This document shows positions 1 through 60,000 of a stretch of DNA of 64,000 bases, piece by piece (position 1 is the first letter of the stretch; every line of letters starts with the position of its first letter). Made by a program: the position numbers. Origin of the DNA: Octopus sinensis (taxonomy: Eukaryota); contig NC_042997.1 of assembly GCF_006345805.1 (NCBI RefSeq), forward strand, positions 125,488,001 to 125,552,000, in the 5' to 3' direction.

Positions 1-3000
1 TTATTTAAAGTTTTCTTGGCATGTCACTTCTTAATAATCTAATTATCGTGTTACCGAACGCTGCTTTCTCTAAGTCAAACTGAAAGGTCACAGCGTGTTC
101 ATTCAACCTGATAATTGTAGCAGCTAAATCTCACCTTAAATCACATCCTATAGTCTCAAAATCAATCTATATTAGACAATATAGTCCTGAATATGTGAAC
201 TTTTGGGATGATAATGGTTGAAACGTCTTTGGTCAAAGGTAAGCTTGAATAGACCTGAATTAGGGTCAAAACAAAAATGATAGCAAAAACAACAATGATG
301 TATAATGTGATCAAAATGTCATAAAAATCATTTCTATTCTAATATTTCATTTGCTTAATTAATTAATTAGCACCGGGAAGGAAATAAAATGCCGACCTTG
401 GCTAAAGTCGGTATATTAAGATACCGTTGTGCCGAATGTCTGTTATTGCTGTTTAGTCTGTTATCCGCGTTTCAGCAGTCCTATGGCATTCCATAAGATC
501 TAAGCCGGTGGCTATCTCTCTTCTACTTGTTTCAGTCATTTGACTGCGGCCATGCTGGAGCACCGCCTTTAGTCGAGCAAATCGTCCCAGGACTTATTCT
601 TTGTAAGCCTAGTAGTTATTCTATCGGTCTTTTTGCTGAACCGCTCAATGATGGAGACGTAAACACACCAGCATCGGTTGTCAAGCAATGTGTTGGGGAC
701 AAACACACAAACATATACACACACATACATATATACGACGGGCTTCTTTCAGGTTCCGTCTACCAAATCCACTCACAAGGCTTTGGTCAGACCAAGGCTA
801 TAGTAGAAGACACTTGCCCAAGGTGCAACGCAGTGGGACTGAACCCGGAACTATGTGGTTGGTAAGCAAGCTACTTACCACACAGCCACTCCTGCGCCTA
901 TCAACTACTTTTTATCTATGGTCCCCTTTGATTATTATTTTATTCTGTATAAACTCCACAGACACTTGATTTTTAAAAGCTAGTTTTATAGATACTTCTT
1001 TCAAAATACCGATGTTGTTCATAACACATTCACTTGTGTAGTTGGACTATGTAAATCGTTAAAGAAACCTGTTTCTTGCAATAAATAAATCTATAGCGAA
1101 ATTTATCATGAGCTCTTGGAATAAATCTGTGAACCTAATTTACTATTTTTCTTATATGAATCCCCAAAAATCTTATATGAGTTCCAGGAATTATATAGGC
1201 CCCGGTTGAGAATCACTGGTCCGTGAGGATATGCTGTCTTTTCTTTTTCAAGAATAATGTAACCAGTGATTTTTCCTTTTCAAGCCAGATGTAGCGTGAT
1301 TTGAAGGAGGCCATGTTGTTATTTCTATCAGGTCACTGACGCTCCATCGTTGTTTCATTCTGTGATAAAATAATCGAAGCTAGTGTATAAGGGAAATGGG
1401 GTAGAACAGTCAACTGTTTGCACCAGTGAAACTCATTTTATCGACTTCTCAAGAATAAAAGATTTGAACTGAAAACAAAACAGCGATACCACTTGCAGAA
1501 GTAAAAAATAGATATTCACTTCCGAAGTCTCTGGTTAATTAAAGAAAAAATACGACATACAGTTCATGTGTAAAAGTCTAAACAGCATTCAGTTGTAAAA
1601 CGGTGACGGGTGACGAAATTAAATAAAATCCGTAGAGAACTTTCTGGTTTGCGTCTCGGCCCTACCTTCTTTTCCATTCAAATTTGTATTATCATGAACA
1701 AAAGAAATAAATAAGTCTCCTTTAATGAAATTCCTAATCTATGGGGAGCTGCAAATGCTATAAGCAATGATCTGACAACTAAGATTAAAGTATTAGAATA
1801 ATGAAAGTTTGTCTTTATATACATTAGTCAAATAAAGATGAGAAGTAACTTTTGAAGGTTGTTTTTTATGTTTATATATATATATAATATATATATATAT
1901 ATATATATATATATAATATATATATATATATAAACATAAAAAACAACCTTCAAAAGTTTTTTTTGCCACCCTATATTGATTAATTATGAATTTTCTGGTT
2001 ACTTCCGTAATGGAATCGACGGCTTATATTTATTTGCTGCCGATAAATTTGGCGCGAGTGCGATGATTTGAAAATTTTAGGTCAGATATTACCTTGGCAG
2101 GGTCGGAAATGCCTCGTGAAAATATCTGTTCCGACTTGGGCTATTTCTTACTGAAGAATCTGAGGGCCTATGGAAGATTGGCTTGATTTAATTTAATCAG
2201 GTTAGTTTACCATTAAACAGCAGATGAAACGGTGCATCGTATAAGAAATTACAGGGTAAATGTTTTTTAAATTTTCTCCTGTTTACGGAATTGATTTTTA
2301 TTTGCGGTTGAAGCTTTGGCTGTTATTTCTAGTGGGTGAATGGCCTATTATGGCCGTTCCTTGATTGTTGATGTTGAACTTAAAAATGGTCTATGACTAT
2401 TTAATTTTTTCCCACTAGGCCGCTGGTGGCAAAAAAATTCTACAAAATTTTTTTTTGCCACCCTATATTGATTAATTATATATATATATATATAAGGAAA
2501 ATTCACGAAAAAAACAAAAGACGAAGACAGGTGGTGTAGAAAACAAACAGATGTATTAGTATAACGCTCGGAAAATGAAAAAGTCTTTTACGCTTCGAGC
2601 CTATTCTCTTTCACAAAAAGGAACACAGAAAGAAACAAGGATATATATGTGTGTTTGTGTGTGTGTGTGTGTGTGTGTGTGTATTTTTCAAACAGATGAA
2701 ACTGTTGACCTCAGGTTTTGCGGGGAAAATATTAGCCAATAAGGAATCCTTGAAGATTGTGATTATGGTAAGGGAAAATTCAACGACGTATTTAGTGTAG
2801 GGTCTAAGAGACTTAACATAATAAGGGTGTTAGTAGGGATAATGATGGATTGTTGAGTGAAAATTGTATGAGCTTATTCAGATAAACGGTGGCCATAGTG
2901 GTTGTAATATAAGAGAGTGAAAGAAGGCGGTGAGCGGGCGAAATGCTTAGCGGTATTTCGTCTGCCGCTACGTTCTGAGTTCAAATTCCGCCGAGGTCGA

Positions 3001-57000: not shown

Positions 57001-60000
57001 TATTAGCAGGAATGGAATGAGATCCGTTGGCTCTAATCATTAACACTTCAAACACCTCTCTTTAATAAACGGTCGATAATTGCTGTTTCCGTGACAAAGG
57101 ATCGCAGAGGAAACTTACACATACAAAACAACAACGGACGTTAGTTTCACACATTATTTTTAATGATTCATCACATACAAGGCTCAGCGATCGATAATAA
57201 ATTCTTGACTAGATTATACCAATAATTTGCTTCTCCGATACCACTGAATTACCGGTCTTCAGAGAATCCGGATAAATGCTGAATGTTGTTGCCTCCATAA
57301 CTATGGACGAATATTTTGGCTTCTGTTTTCGATAGTTATTTTTCTTATTATTTCTGTTCGATGGAAAATTGCAGCCAGACATGTTTTGCCATGAATAATA
57401 GATGTTTTCAACCAATTTATAAATAAAGTATTTTGTTGTCGCTAAATAACAAGGTTTTTCAACAAACGTGTGAACAGAAAAGTTAGAAGTTGTCACTTTA
57501 AAGCTCCGTTTTGTTTTTATACCCAAATTACTAGCGTTGCCAAAATTACAAGAAATTCGATAATGTTTTCATGAGATATTGGTGGAATTGCTGCAATTAA
57601 TATATTATAAGACTGTAGCTAAATGTTTATTCTTGCTGTTTTATTTTCCCGAACATTTTCACTCATAATATATCTTAATTAAGTGTCTGTTTGTTTGGAG
57701 TACAAACCTTCATTTTAGACTGTTAAGTTTCTGACTTAGGTTGAAATAAAATAAACCTCTCGAAGACCTCAAACTGAGAACTGTCCAGGAAAAAAATAAA
57801 GATTCGGTAATACATATGTATATAAATATACAAGACTATCCTGGATGTCTACACTTTCTTTCATTACAGATCTTTAAATGAATACAATTCGCTGCCTATA
57901 TATTTGCACTATCAACCTGTCTGTGTGTATATATGCATACATAAATACATATAAATATATACATATATATGTGTGTTTTGGAATGTATGTATAAATATAT
58001 ATGTGTGTATGTATATATCACGTGACCGACCAGACCATCAGATGTTGTTACACATCGCTGGTCACAATGCATTCGCATTGCTTTAGCCTTCGAGCAGGCC
58101 AACAGAAGAAAGAGTGGGAGAAAGAGTACAGCAGGGATCACCAACCCCTGCTGGAGCGTCGTGGCGGTTTTAGTTGTTTTTGCTCAATAAACACTCACAA
58201 CGACCGGTCTGGGAATCGAAACCGCGATCCTACGACCGCGAGTCCGCTACCCTAACCACTAAGCCATTGCGCTTCCACTTATATATATATATATATATAT
58301 ATATATATATATATATTATTATATATATATATATATATATATATATATAGATATATATTATATATATATATATATATATATAATATATATATATATATAT
58401 ATATATATATATATAATATATATAATATATATATATATATAATATATATATATATATATATATATATATAGGCAGTATATAAGCAGTATATAGGCCATAC
58501 AAAAAATAGCTTACGTAACAGGATGGCGGTGCATAAATCACAAATTAGAAACCCTGATTACCGCAAAATACCGGTCAGCGGACACATAGATAGATGTGCT
58601 GGAAATGTAAATCTGAAATTTACAACTAACCCGCTCTATAAATTCAGTGACAACGCAACCTTCACACAACGCCAAAATAAAGAACTATATTTCATAAAAA
58701 AAATTAGACCAAGTTTAAACACCCTGGGCCAGGAATACTAAAACAAAAGATAAGTCCTCCGAAAAGGAGAAGCAAAATTCCACCACGGCCGCTACTTTAA
58801 ACAGACACTCGCTCTGACGGAAATATGCCTTAGTAAAAAAGGAAAAAAATTCTTTCGTGCAAATCTGACCCTGATACATACGATACAGCTAAGGGTCAGA
58901 CCCGATTCTGATTGGTCAACAAGTTGATGACGTCTAGCTCTGCTAGAATGGACAGGACACAAACAGGGGACAGTCATTAGTCAGAATATTGATGACGTCC
59001 TTTTCTGCTTGACTAGTTACCTAACAAGTACAGACAGGGGGCAGATCTAATGTAGCTATAAGTCGTGATTGGGCAGAATCTGGATGACGTCCCGTTCTGC
59101 TTGACTAACGAAGCGACTGGTCAAAACAGGAAACAAACAAGAGGCAGTTATAATGCAGCGATTGGTCAAAATGATGATGACGTCCCGTTCTGCTTGAATA
59201 AAGCCACCTAACGAAACGATTGGTCAAAACGTTGATGACGTCACGCTACGCTAGATTGACCACCTAACAGGCATTATAAAACCGAGCACTTCACAAAACC
59301 CACTAGATCCACCCAGCGAACATCCACCATGGGTCATCACAATTGCTTAAGGTAAAAATGAATTCCTCGCTCTTTCGGAAACATCAATCTTCTGTATTGA
59401 CCGCTTTCCACCACTTTGATCTGTTTTTTGTATTGAATACGTATCACCACCGTGGGCCACTGCATCGAACACTTTGAACATATACTTCAAACTATATATC
59501 AACTATACATGAACTATATATCAACTATACATGAACTCTAAGATGTCTGACTCCGTTGTGTATTATAAATGAATTTCTTGTGTTTGACGGCATGAGCTGT
59601 CTTTTTTTATATATAACTTTTTTGATAAGGTTCATTTCAGGAACTGAAACATGTTATAATGTATATATAAAAATTAAAAATTGTATAATACAGCAGCATT
59701 TTCGAACTTCATTTTTTACAAATATATATATATATATATATATATATAATATATATATATATATATATATATATATATATATGTATGTATGTTTGTATGT
59801 ATGTATGTATGTATACATATATACATACACACACACATACACACACACACTCATATATATATATTCTTTTCTTCGTTTCAGCCTTGCAGCTGTGGTCATG
59901 CTGGAGCACCACCGTGGTCTTCCTATTTTCCTCATGCTGAATGGGTTTCACATCACCACTCCTGTATGCACCTTTGACCCAGTTGTTGGCCCATTTGGTG

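What the first reader, a model, noticed from the sequence alone, without database searches (positions are those of the whole stretch)
1951..59720. At least seven distinct HHR-bearing element families in 64 kb, mostly abutting (TA)n
HHR folds occur at 2143, ~20020 and ~20165, 27681, 42766, 47912, 51728, 52097 and ~59622, with weaker shells near 2590 and 22430. Apart from the within-family pairs the flanks differ, and most sit in or next to TA tracts. Inference: a Penelope/GIY-YIG-driven ecosystem of small self-cleaving parasites that prefers (TA)n targets, implying a very large genome-wide ribozyme count and possible effects on any host pre-mRNA spanning the region.
Basis: partly seen in the sequence, partly recalled or inferred. 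Interest (0 to 1): 0.75.

Follow-up and report, generated by a model that had tools for sequence, protein, structure and literature searches.

The report
Decayed Penelope-type hammerhead elements in TA repeats
This repeat-rich stretch, probably from an octopus-like genome, holds worn-down copies of Penelope-type jumping genes and their small dependants that carry hammerhead ribozyme motifs and sit in TA repeats; this is a known kind of genomic parasite and almost all the ribozyme cores here are mutated.

Summary
Partly confirmed. Hammerhead (HHR)-like type-I/minimal motifs exist at six of the 11 claimed sites: 2143, 27681, 47912, 51728 (motif 51763-51808), 52097 and 59622. They exceed chance. 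A unified descriptor gives 2 and 5 clusters at <=0 and <=1 core changes, against 0.006 and 0.37 for 179 permuted-core decoys on the real sequence (0 of 179 reach it) and 0.01 and 0.36 for shuffles (0 of 100). Only 2143 has an intact core with an accessible fold. The others carry one or two core changes (U4C, G12A, G3/C8 swap, U3/A8). Sites 2590, 20020, 20165, 22430 and 42766 fit no complete fold. Rfam finds no hammerhead family in any of 8 searches. The Penelope reading gains direct support. ORF 58472-58738 is the C-terminal GIY-YIG end of a 5'-truncated Penelope-like element. It is bounded by (TA)n on both sides, and 59622 lies in its 3' region. Two short units (1957-2479, 51540-51983) are partial tandems abutting (TA)n, and two are foldbacks. 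Seven of 11 elements end within 10 bp of a TA tract (random mean 1.18). All of this matches published Penelope-element and retrozyme biology, so it is a new member of a known kind. Genome-wide counts and effects on host transcripts remain untested.

The parts
1957..1987 (+). 31-bp copy of the 3' end of unit E1 placed at its 5' side (partial tandem, or 'tail')
   Evidence: Exact 31-bp repeat at 1957-1987 and 2449-2479. Sequence seen.
1988..2479 (+). E1: a 492-bp non-coding unit carrying the best HHR candidate. Its 3' end abuts (TA)n at 2480-2495.
   Evidence: No Pfam domain in overlapping ORFs.
2143..2249 (+). Type-I HHR candidate with an intact core. Helix I is 2143-2150 / 2242-2249 (8 bp). 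CTGAAGA is 2151-2157. Helix II is 2158-2162 / 2221-2225 with a long inner hairpin. GAA is 2226-2228. Helix III is 2229-2240 (4 bp, loop TGCA). H17 is A at 2241.
   Evidence: Strict descriptor hit. The HHR-constrained fold is -29.2 against an MFE of -30.7 kcal/mol. z = -4.5. No Rfam hammerhead hit.
2496..2647 (-). It lies between TA and TG/TA tracts.
   Evidence: By-eye similarity only. The Smith-Waterman z of 2.6 is not significant. No HHR fold.
19980..20254 (.). Foldback element. Each arm holds part of an HHR-like motif at its inner end. The 20165 arm has an exact CTGAAGA. The 20020 arm has CTGGAGA, GAA, ACGT, T and helix I. Helix II is missing in both.
   Evidence: Inverted arms 19980-20033/20201-20254 and 20043-20067/20153-20177. 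Arm alignment z = 25. No complete fold. No Rfam hammerhead.
27570..27791 (.). Foldback element (arms 88-90% complementary). A TA/CA microsatellite follows at about 27809.
27681..27731 (+). Minimal-HHR-like motif with a swapped core pair. The order is helix I (7 bp), GTGAACA (G3/C8 instead of C3/G8), a bulged G, helix II GTCGC/GCGAC, GAA, AATATT, T.
   Evidence: 0 changes for core GTGANCA. The MFE equals helix I plus helix II. In the helix-I-free test, 9 of 179 decoys match. No Rfam hammerhead.
37691..37747 (-). Probably not functional.
   Evidence: The HHR fold is -3.1 against an MFE of -12.6 kcal/mol. No Rfam hammerhead.
47312..47353 (-). It has CTGAAAA (G8A), helix II GAGTTC/GAACTC, GAA, AATT, T, and helix I with 5 of 6 pairs.
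   Evidence: Fold z = -0.16.
47820..47965 (-). Family F47, copy a: a short non-coding element. Its 5' end lies next to (TA)n at 47967-47998. Boundaries are approximate.
   Evidence: Self-BLAST of 47832-47957 against 52210-52083, 85% identity..
47912..47946 (-). Minimal-HHR motif of F47a. The order is ATTT, CTGACGA, a bulged A, GAGC/GCTC, AAA (G12A at a CpG), ACGT, T, AAAT.
   Evidence: (1 core change).
51540..51983 (+). E6: 1.22 copies of a 366-bp unit. The terminal segment is repeated at 51540-51617 and 51906-51983. Both ends abut (TA)n directly.
   Evidence: (80 bp, 98.75%).
51763..51808 (+). Near-canonical type-I HHR relic. The order is TCTAGA, CCGATGA (U4C), AGGA/TCCT, GAA, ACA-CGG-TGT, C, CCTAGA. 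Position 1.1/2.1 is an A.C mismatch.
   Evidence: 1 core change. Fold. No Rfam hammerhead.
52031..52238 (+). Family F47, copy b. It lies between a (TA)n(TG)n tract (51984-52030) and (TA)n (52244-). Boundaries are approximate.
52097..52131 (+). Minimal-HHR motif of F47b. The order is GTTT, CCGACGA (U4C), A, GAGC/GCTC, AAA (G12A), ACGT, T, AAAC. The outermost helix I pair is G-C here and A-T in copy a.
   Evidence: 2 core changes. Alignment.
58280..58470 (.). (TA)99 tract at the 5' junction of the truncated Penelope-like element.
58472..58741 (+). C-terminal GIY-YIG endonuclease remnant (89 codons plus stop) of a 5'-truncated Penelope-like element.
   Evidence: In one search, all 17 long relatives hit only here.
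58742..59720 (+). 3' non-coding region of the Penelope-like remnant. It holds five copies of a ~47-nt motif (58901-59255) and ends at (TA)n (59722-).
59622..59655 (+). HHR-like motif with a U3/A8 core variant. The order is TTGATAA, GGTTC/GAACT, GAA, ACATGT, T. There is no contiguous helix I.
   Evidence: the only core-like word in the region. In one search there is 1 hit, and 3 of 59 decoys reach 1. Not captured by descriptors that include helix I.

Best explanation
WHAT IT IS. The window is a transposon- and microsatellite-rich stretch, probably from an octopod. It holds one 5'-truncated Penelope-like element (PLE) and several short, non-coding, mutually unrelated elements. These have the anatomy of PLE pseudo-LTR fragments or PLE-dependent non-autonomous elements ('non-LTR retrozyme' monomers).

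HOW IT WORKS (inferred from the published model, not shown here).
- A PLE-encoded RT with a GIY-YIG endonuclease nicks DNA, here preferentially in (TA)n. It then copies element RNA into the nick.
- This yields partial tandems, short terminal 'tails' and head-to-head inverted truncated copies.
- Each unit carries a type-I or minimal hammerhead in the sense strand. In the source elements this would cut tandem transcripts into unit-length RNA. Minimal forms would act as dimers through their palindromic helix III.

STATE OF THE COPIES. Here the copies are old. All but one core carry substitutions, several of them at CpG. No two intact motifs lie in tandem. Most are therefore relics rather than working ribozymes.

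SHOWN VERSUS INFERRED. Shown: the motifs, their excess over chance, the GIY-YIG remnant, the element architectures and the TA junctions. Inferred: mobilisation by PLE enzymes, ancestral self-cleavage and targeting of (TA)n.
For: 1. Motif excess over shuffles and over permuted-core decoys.
2. Features the descriptor did not require but the PLE-HHR paper reports. All 3 minimal hits have an unpaired base after position 9 and a G10.1-C11.1 pair. Their helix III is a palindrome (ACGT, AATATT). PMC4209133 passages describe these features.
3. The GIY-YIG remnant. Its relatives have an RT plus C-terminal GIY-YIG architecture and a C-x(3-5)-C-x2-C linker. PMC8557442 passages assign that linker to the Neptune/Nematis clades and link it to microsatellite bias.
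4. The only core-like word in that element's 3' region is the 59622 motif, on the sense strand.
5. Architecture. There are partial tandems at 1957-2479 and 51540-51983. There are foldbacks with the motif at the inner end of an arm. Both arrangements are described for PLEs.
6. TA junctions: 7 of 11 elements, against 1.18 expected, with 0 of 8 for family B.
7. The HHR fold of 2143 lies 1.5 kcal/mol above its MFE.
8. One compensatory change in helix I between the two F47 copies, A-T against G-C.
Against: - No Rfam hammerhead model matches any site.
- Five of the 11 claimed sites fail.
- Every supported motif except 2143 has substitutions at conserved core positions.
- One strict-core hit (37691) is energetically implausible, so strict descriptor hits can be spurious.
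- The short elements share no sequence with the PLE remnant, so their PLE dependence rests on anatomy alone.
- Most are single copies, so there is no family consensus or real covariation test.
- I set several element boundaries where similarity or palindromy ends, which is often at a microsatellite. Some elements also share one TA tract (E1 with the 2590 copy; E6 with F47b). The boundary statistic is therefore inflated.
- Family A also abuts TA tracts (6 of 16).
- The descriptors are my own reconstruction from text. The paper's descriptor figure and supplements were not seen.
Confidence: 0.7

Rival explanations
1. Chance look-alikes. AT-rich, inverted-repeat-rich DNA throws up hammerhead-shaped strings, and none of these descends from a ribozyme.
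For: - No Rfam hammerhead hit in 8 searches.
- CTGATGA occurs at the chance level.
- At <=2 core changes the unified descriptor is near background (12 against 5.2; 3 of 179 decoys reach it).
- 37691 is a strict match that cannot reasonably fold as an HHR.
- Five claimed sites fail.
Against: - At <=0 and <=1 core changes, 0 of 179 decoys and 0 of 100 shuffles reach the observed counts.
- The hits show features the descriptor did not require: a bulge after position 9, G10.1-C11.1 and a palindromic helix III.
- They sit in elements with PLE-like anatomy, and one sits beside a GIY-YIG remnant.
Confidence: 0.12
2. One reading: a live population of self-cleaving ribozymes that cut any transcript spanning the region.
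For: 2143 has an intact core, three helices and an accessible fold. The 80-bp repeat of E6 is 98.75% identical, which suggests a fairly recent insertion.
Against: - Core substitutions are present in 27681, 47912, 51763, 52097, 59622 and 47312.
- Minimal PLE hammerheads showed no detectable cleavage as single motifs, and low activity as dimers or trimers (PMC4209133 passage).
- No two intact motifs lie in tandem.
- No host exon was detected in the window.
Confidence: 0.1
3. The short elements are not PLE-dependent. They are MITE-like foldback DNA transposons or LINE-mobilised SINEs that happen to carry hammerhead-like motifs.
For: - Two elements are foldbacks.
- LINE-type remnants (RVT_1, zf-RVT) and a Tc1/mariner remnant lie in the window.
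- There is no sequence similarity to the PLE remnant.
Against: - A partial tandem of 78-80 bp (E6) is too long for a target-site duplication.
- Terminal tail, inverted truncated copies, a sense-strand HHR and TA junctions together match the PLE descriptions.
- The 2026 preprint reports that animal retrozymes resemble PLE pLTRs.
- The RT remnant near 12 kb is not hit by any of 17 PLE proteins, so it is a different element. Nothing ties it to the HHR elements.
Confidence: 0.08

Closest known systems
Minimal and type-I hammerhead motifs in the pseudo-LTRs of metazoan Penelope-like elements (Cervera and de la Pena 2014, PMC4209133; passages read)
   Same: - Type-I topology, a short helix I, and helix II with a G10.1-C11.1 pair.
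- An unpaired base after position 9.
- Helix III reduced to a palindrome.
- High sequence diversity between families.
- Mostly single dispersed motifs, with some pairs on opposite strands.
- A U3-A8 core covariant, as at 59622.
   Different: - Here nearly every copy has a substitution at a conserved core position.
- A G3/C8-swapped core (27681) is not among the variants I saw described.
- Only one PLE coding remnant is present.
- The paper's descriptor figure and supplements were not seen.
Canonical C-terminal-EN Penelope-like elements of the Neptune/Nematis type (Craig et al. 2021, PMC8557442; passages read)
   Same: - Relatives of the window's EN fragment have an RT followed by a C-terminal GIY-YIG.
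- They have two Cys between GIY and YIG and an upstream C-x(3-5)-C-x2-C linker.
- Insertions show partial tandems, tails and inverted truncated copies.
- Insertion into microsatellites.
   Different: - The window copy keeps only the last 89 codons, so the linker and RT are inferred from relatives.
- No clade assignment by phylogeny was done.
- The paper documents (TA)n targeting for Naiads, which lack canonical HHRs. For Neptune it only cites a hypothesis.
Animal non-LTR retrozymes (Cervera and de la Pena 2020, PMC7229834, passages; Li et al. 2026 preprint 10.64898/2026.07.22.740005, abstract and passages)
   Same: Short (150-450 bp), AT-rich, non-coding units with a type-I HHR. E1 is 492 bp and E6 is 366 bp. 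Solo 'monomers' are common, and the units are proposed to depend on PLE enzymes.
   Different: - Retrozymes are defined by tandem arrays that give circular RNAs. Here there are only 1.06 and 1.22 copies, so there is one motif per locus.
- No RNA evidence is available.
- E1 is slightly above the quoted size range.

Membership tests
Hammerhead ribozyme (type I / minimal) | Three helices around a junction in type-I order (helix III may be a short palindrome in minimal forms) | tested here: met
   Met for 2143, 27681, 47912, 51763, 52097 and 47312. Not met for 2590, 20020, 20165, 22430 and 42766. 59622 lacks a contiguous helix I.
Hammerhead ribozyme (type I / minimal) | Conserved core: C3 U4 G5 A6 N7 G8 A9, G12 A13 A14, A15.1-U16.1, and H17 not G (core recalled and consistent with PMC4209133 passages) | tested here: inconclusive
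   Intact in 2143 and in the implausible 37691. One or two substitutions occur in all the others. These are U4C (51763), G12A (47912), U4C plus G12A (52097), G8A (47312), a G3/C8 swap (27681) and U3/A8 (59622).
Hammerhead ribozyme (type I / minimal) | Match to curated Rfam hammerhead covariance models | tested here: not met
   No hammerhead family was listed in 8 searches. In one search only 150 of 320 rows were visible. 47312 and 59622 were covered only by the whole-window searches.
Hammerhead ribozyme (type I / minimal) | Site-specific self-cleavage | not testable with these tools
   Needs in vitro transcription of monomer and dimer constructs.
Penelope-like element (EN+, C-terminal GIY-YIG) | GIY-YIG endonuclease with PLE-type Cys/His motifs at the C-terminus of the ORF | tested here: met
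   Pfam GIY-YIG, E 3.2e-4 and 21.4 bits, just under the 22.6 cut-off. There are 395 relatives. The fragment aligns from the YIG motif to the stop codon. The GIY half and its Cys pair are lost at the (TA)n junction.
Penelope-like element (EN+, C-terminal GIY-YIG) | PLE-type reverse transcriptase upstream of the endonuclease | tested here: not met
   Absent from the window copy, which is 5'-truncated. All 17 long relatives hit only 58481-58738. It is present in relatives: 5 of 10 have RVT_1 plus GIY-YIG.
Penelope-like element (EN+, C-terminal GIY-YIG) | Pseudo-LTR / partial-tandem or inverted insertion structure with an HHR in the repeat | tested here: inconclusive
   The remnant itself is a single truncated copy with the 59622 motif in its 3' region. 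Partial tandems and foldbacks are seen in the other, unrelated elements.
Animal non-LTR retrozyme | Tandem repeats (two or more units of about 150-450 bp), each with a type-I HHR | tested here: not met
   E1 has 1.06 copies and E6 has 1.22 copies, with one motif each. They would count only as 'monomers' in the sense of the 2026 preprint.
Animal non-LTR retrozyme | Expression as unit-length circular RNA | not testable with these tools
   No transcript data available.

The most novel reading that the evidence does not exclude
Some of these octopod elements may propagate with non-canonical but working cores. Candidates are the G3/C8-swapped pair at 27681 and U3/A8 at 59622. If so, the core 'substitutions' are lineage-specific ribozyme variants rather than decay. 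In addition, TA-targeted PLE-dependent elements may help to seed or split the unusually dense (TA)n tracts of this genome.
Probability: 0.1. Interest if true: 0.55.

Novelty: new member of a known kind. Interest (0 to 1): 0.3.

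Why it matters
- It shows that a reader working from raw sequence can spot real minimal-hammerhead relics that Rfam's models miss.
- It ties those relics in one window to a Penelope-type endonuclease remnant and to (TA)n junctions.
- For cephalopod genomes, it points to HHR-bearing PLE derivatives as a component of the repeat landscape. My searches of the paper library found no specific description of this. One search (octopus, hammerhead ribozyme, Penelope) listed one of the two papers it counted, PMC8557442, which mentions Octopus only for Naiads.
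- It does not change what is known about how these elements work.

Tried and rejected
- Rfam at gathering and at E<=10, on the whole window and six sub-windows, gave no hammerhead. The top hits are microsatellite or hairpin artefacts such as mir-297 and MIR7993.
- ARAGORN found no tRNA-like heads.
- The word-indexed homology search with the RT fragment found nothing, and neither did the one with the EN fragment. The tool itself calls this weak evidence.
- The ESM Atlas returned only 'generic RT'. NCBIfam returned nothing meaningful for the EN fragment.
- The RT remnant at 11590-12740(-) was considered as a PLE RT and rejected. None of 17 PLE proteins hits it, and zf-RVT remnants lie nearby.
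- 37691-37747(-) has a strict core but was rejected as a ribozyme on energetics.
- 2031-2083(+) is a 1-change hit with GU-rich helices and is treated as probable noise.
- Homology of 42766 to 51763 (z 2.9) and of 2590 to 47912 (z 2.6) is not significant.
- Folding of 59622, 20020, 20165 and 22430 gave no HHR-like MFE and unremarkable z-scores.
- Motif-level TA proximity is only marginal.
- No eukaryotic genome collection was available, so no family consensus could be built.

Full report
SETTING. The window is 64,000 bases with no N and a GC content of about 35-41%. It is very rich in simple repeats: Tandem Repeats Finder gives 66 rows, and (TA)>=5 tracts number 85. It is also rich in interspersed repeats. 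One family of about 400 bp has 16 merged copies, and a 184-bp-dimer family has 8. Coding remnants are all transposon-like. They are RVT_1 at 11590-12260(-), zf-RVT at 14484-15026(-) and 19099-19362(+), Tc1/mariner HTH and DDE_3 at 61151-61928(+), and a GIY-YIG fragment at 58472-58738(+). I scanned 120 of the 170 non-low-complexity ORFs of at least 70 aa. The other 50 lie mostly in the two big repeat families or microsatellites and were not scanned. The closest relative of the GIY-YIG fragment (70% identity) is an uncharacterised Octopus bimaculoides protein. The host is therefore probably an octopod or a near relative. This is a hint, not a proof.

Descriptor searches say partly yes. The shuffle mean is 0.16, and 8 of 50 shuffles have a hit. 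I then built a minimal-hammerhead descriptor from the text of the Penelope-element paper (PMC4209133, passages; its descriptor figure and supplements were not seen). Shuffles give 0.02 at <=1 change and 0.29 at <=2 changes, and 0 of 100 shuffles reach 3.

Shuffling destroys natural inverted repeats, so I ran a second control. I kept the real sequence and replaced the core word by all 179 other permutations of its letters. For the minimal descriptor, 0 of 179 decoys reach 3. For a unified type-I descriptor, the true core gives 2, 5 and 12 clusters at <=0, <=1 and <=2 changes. Decoys give 0.006, 0.37 and 5.2, and 0, 0 and 3 of 179 reach the observed counts. Shuffles give 0.01 and 0.36, and 0 of 100 reach them.

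SITE BY SITE.
- 2143-2249(+) has an intact core (CTGAAGA, GAA, A..T, H17 = A). Helix I is 8 bp. Helix II is 5 bp and extends into a long hairpin. Helix III is 4 bp with loop TGCA. Its hammerhead conformation lies only 1.5 kcal/mol above the MFE.
- 47912(-) and 52097(+) are two copies of one short element, 85% identical over about 126 bp. Both read AAA where GAA is expected. The change sits at a CpG. The second copy also has U4C. The outermost helix I pair differs in a compensating way, A-T against G-C.
- 27681(+) has helix I of 7 bp, a bulged base, helix II GTCGC/GCGAC, GAA, AATATT and T. Its core is GTGAACA, that is, positions 3 and 8 are swapped. It is a zero-change hit for that swapped core, and its MFE is exactly helix I plus helix II. 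One paper mentions a G3-C8 variant retaining some activity, as data not shown (PMC3884650, two passages).
- 59622(+) reads TTGATAA, GGTTC/GAACT, GAA, ACATGT, T. That core is the U3-A8 covariant reported for a Schistosoma PLE (PMC4209133 passage). It has no contiguous helix I and fails every descriptor that includes helix I. In a helix-I-free test it is the single hit, and 3 of 59 decoys reach 1. It is also the only core-like word in the 3' region of the PLE remnant.
47312-47353(-) has G8A and a tidy 6-bp helix II. 37691-37747(-) has a strict core, but its hammerhead fold is 9.5 kcal/mol worse than the MFE, so I discount it.
- The sites at 2590, 20020, 20165, 22430 and 42766 fit no complete fold, even at a relaxation with 150 background clusters. 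The two arms at 20020 and 20165 do keep recognisable pieces: helix I, a near or exact core word, and GAA-ACGT-T. Both lack helix II.

WHAT THE ELEMENTS ARE. ORF 58472-58738 begins at the junction with a (TA)99 tract, in the middle of the GIY-YIG motif, and runs to a stop codon. A full HMMER scan finds 395 relatives. The long ones (about 740-756 aa) match at their extreme C-terminus. Of 10 long relatives scanned, 5 have RVT_1 followed by GIY-YIG, 2 have GIY-YIG only, 1 has RVT_1 only and 2 have neither. The alignment shows two Cys between GIY and YIG and a C-x(3-5)-C-x2-C linker upstream in the relatives. The passages read in PMC8557442 assign that linker to Neptune/Nematis-type elements and connect it, as a hypothesis, with microsatellite targeting. 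All 17 long relatives used as tblastn probes hit the window only here. The RT remnant near 12 kb is therefore a different, LINE-like element. The PLE remnant runs from 58471 to about 59720 and ends at another (TA)n tract.

Two short non-coding units are partial tandems in the sense orientation of their motif.
- 1957-2479 is a 492-bp unit whose last 31 bp are repeated at its 5' side. Its 3' end abuts (TA)n.
- 51540-51983 is a 366-bp unit whose last 78-80 bp are repeated at 98.75% identity. Both ends abut (TA)n.

Two others are foldbacks with the motif at the inner end of an arm. Partial tandems, short terminal tails and adjacent inverted truncated copies are the insertion forms described for PLEs (PMC8557442 passages). 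Short AT-rich units with a type-I hammerhead are described as animal retrozymes, and a 2026 preprint derives these from PLE pseudo-LTRs. Outside the core words the elements are unrelated to each other. This fits the 'extreme sequence variability' reported for PLE hammerheads. It also means that I cannot show PLE dependence by homology.

TA ASSOCIATION. At motif level the association is weak. P is about 0.05-0.15 for my set. A quarter of the window lies within 150 bp of a TA tract. At element ends the association is stronger. Seven of 11 elements end within 10 bp of a (TA)>=5 tract, against a mean of 1.18 for random intervals (0 of 5000 draws). The figure is 0 of 8 for family B and 6 of 16 for family A. 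There are caveats. I set some boundaries by eye. Two TA tracts are each shared by two elements. TA association is not unique to these elements.

MECHANISM AND VERDICT. The most likely account is a set of old insertions of a Penelope-like element and of PLE-dependent short elements. They were inserted by GIY-YIG-nicked, target-primed reverse transcription, preferentially in (TA)n. Each carries a sense-strand hammerhead that once processed tandem transcripts. The insertion mechanism and ancestral cleavage are inferred from the literature, not shown here. The core substitutions, the lack of tandem intact motifs and the reported weak activity of minimal PLE hammerheads argue that most copies are relics. 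This is a known kind of system in a lineage where it seems not to have been described specifically. I rate it as a new member of a known kind, of modest interest.

Noticed in passing
518-900, 26294-26869, 32898-33328, 34801-35218, 37151-37558, 41905-42248, 42961-43350, 46138-46540, 49586-50195, 55903-56298, 62359-62524, 63019-63466: An interspersed repeat family of about 400 bp with 16 merged copies (65-88% identity). It often has an internal or terminal TA/AC microsatellite. Six of 16 copies end within 10 bp of a TA tract. Class unknown.
   Followed up: partly
2940-3461, 15304-15723, 22597-23019, 23374-23544, 29930-30286, 31485-31908, 32481-32650, 48591-48941: A SINE-like family built as a dimer of a 184-bp unit, with 8 copies at up to 92% identity. 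None is near a TA tract.
   Followed up: partly
37823-38319: Two tandem copies of a 252-bp unit whose start looks tRNA-derived (a SINE-like head). ARAGORN calls no tRNA anywhere in the window.
   Followed up: no
58901-59255: Five copies of a ~47-nt motif in the 3' region of the PLE remnant. Each contains GATTGGTCA and TGATGACGTC. These look like CCAAT-box and CRE-like sites (a resemblance recalled, not tested) and might be promoter elements of the element.
   Followed up: no
11590-12740(-), 14484-15026(-), 19099-19362(+), 10024-10446(+), 19302-19670(+): LINE-type reverse-transcriptase remnants (RVT_1, zf-RVT), plus related ORF fragments with no Pfam match. They are not hit by PLE proteins.
   Followed up: partly
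61151-61928(+): Tc1/mariner-type DNA transposon remnant (HTH_Tnp_Tc3_2 at E 1e-8; DDE_3 at E 6e-4).
   Followed up: no
28173-28652; 18632-18864; 38315-38573: Tandem repeats of 107 bp x 4.5, 115 bp x 2 and 127 bp x 2, at 95-96% identity. Nature unknown.
   Followed up: no
1846-1960: A (TA)31 tract flanked by a 26-nt inverted repeat (read by eye from the sequence), forming a long hairpin immediately upstream of unit E1.
   Followed up: no
2424-2462: A 13-bp perfect hairpin (GGTGGCAAAAAAA ... TTTTTTTGCCACC) at the 3' end of unit E1. It causes spurious Rfam hits (Plastid-psbM, mir-5728).
   Followed up: no
whole window, e.g. 24078-24177, 52692-52965, 59781-59858: Dozens of sub-threshold mir-297, mir-466 and mir-3149 'hits' are artefacts of (TA)n, (TG)n and (TATG)n microsatellites.
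   Followed up: yes
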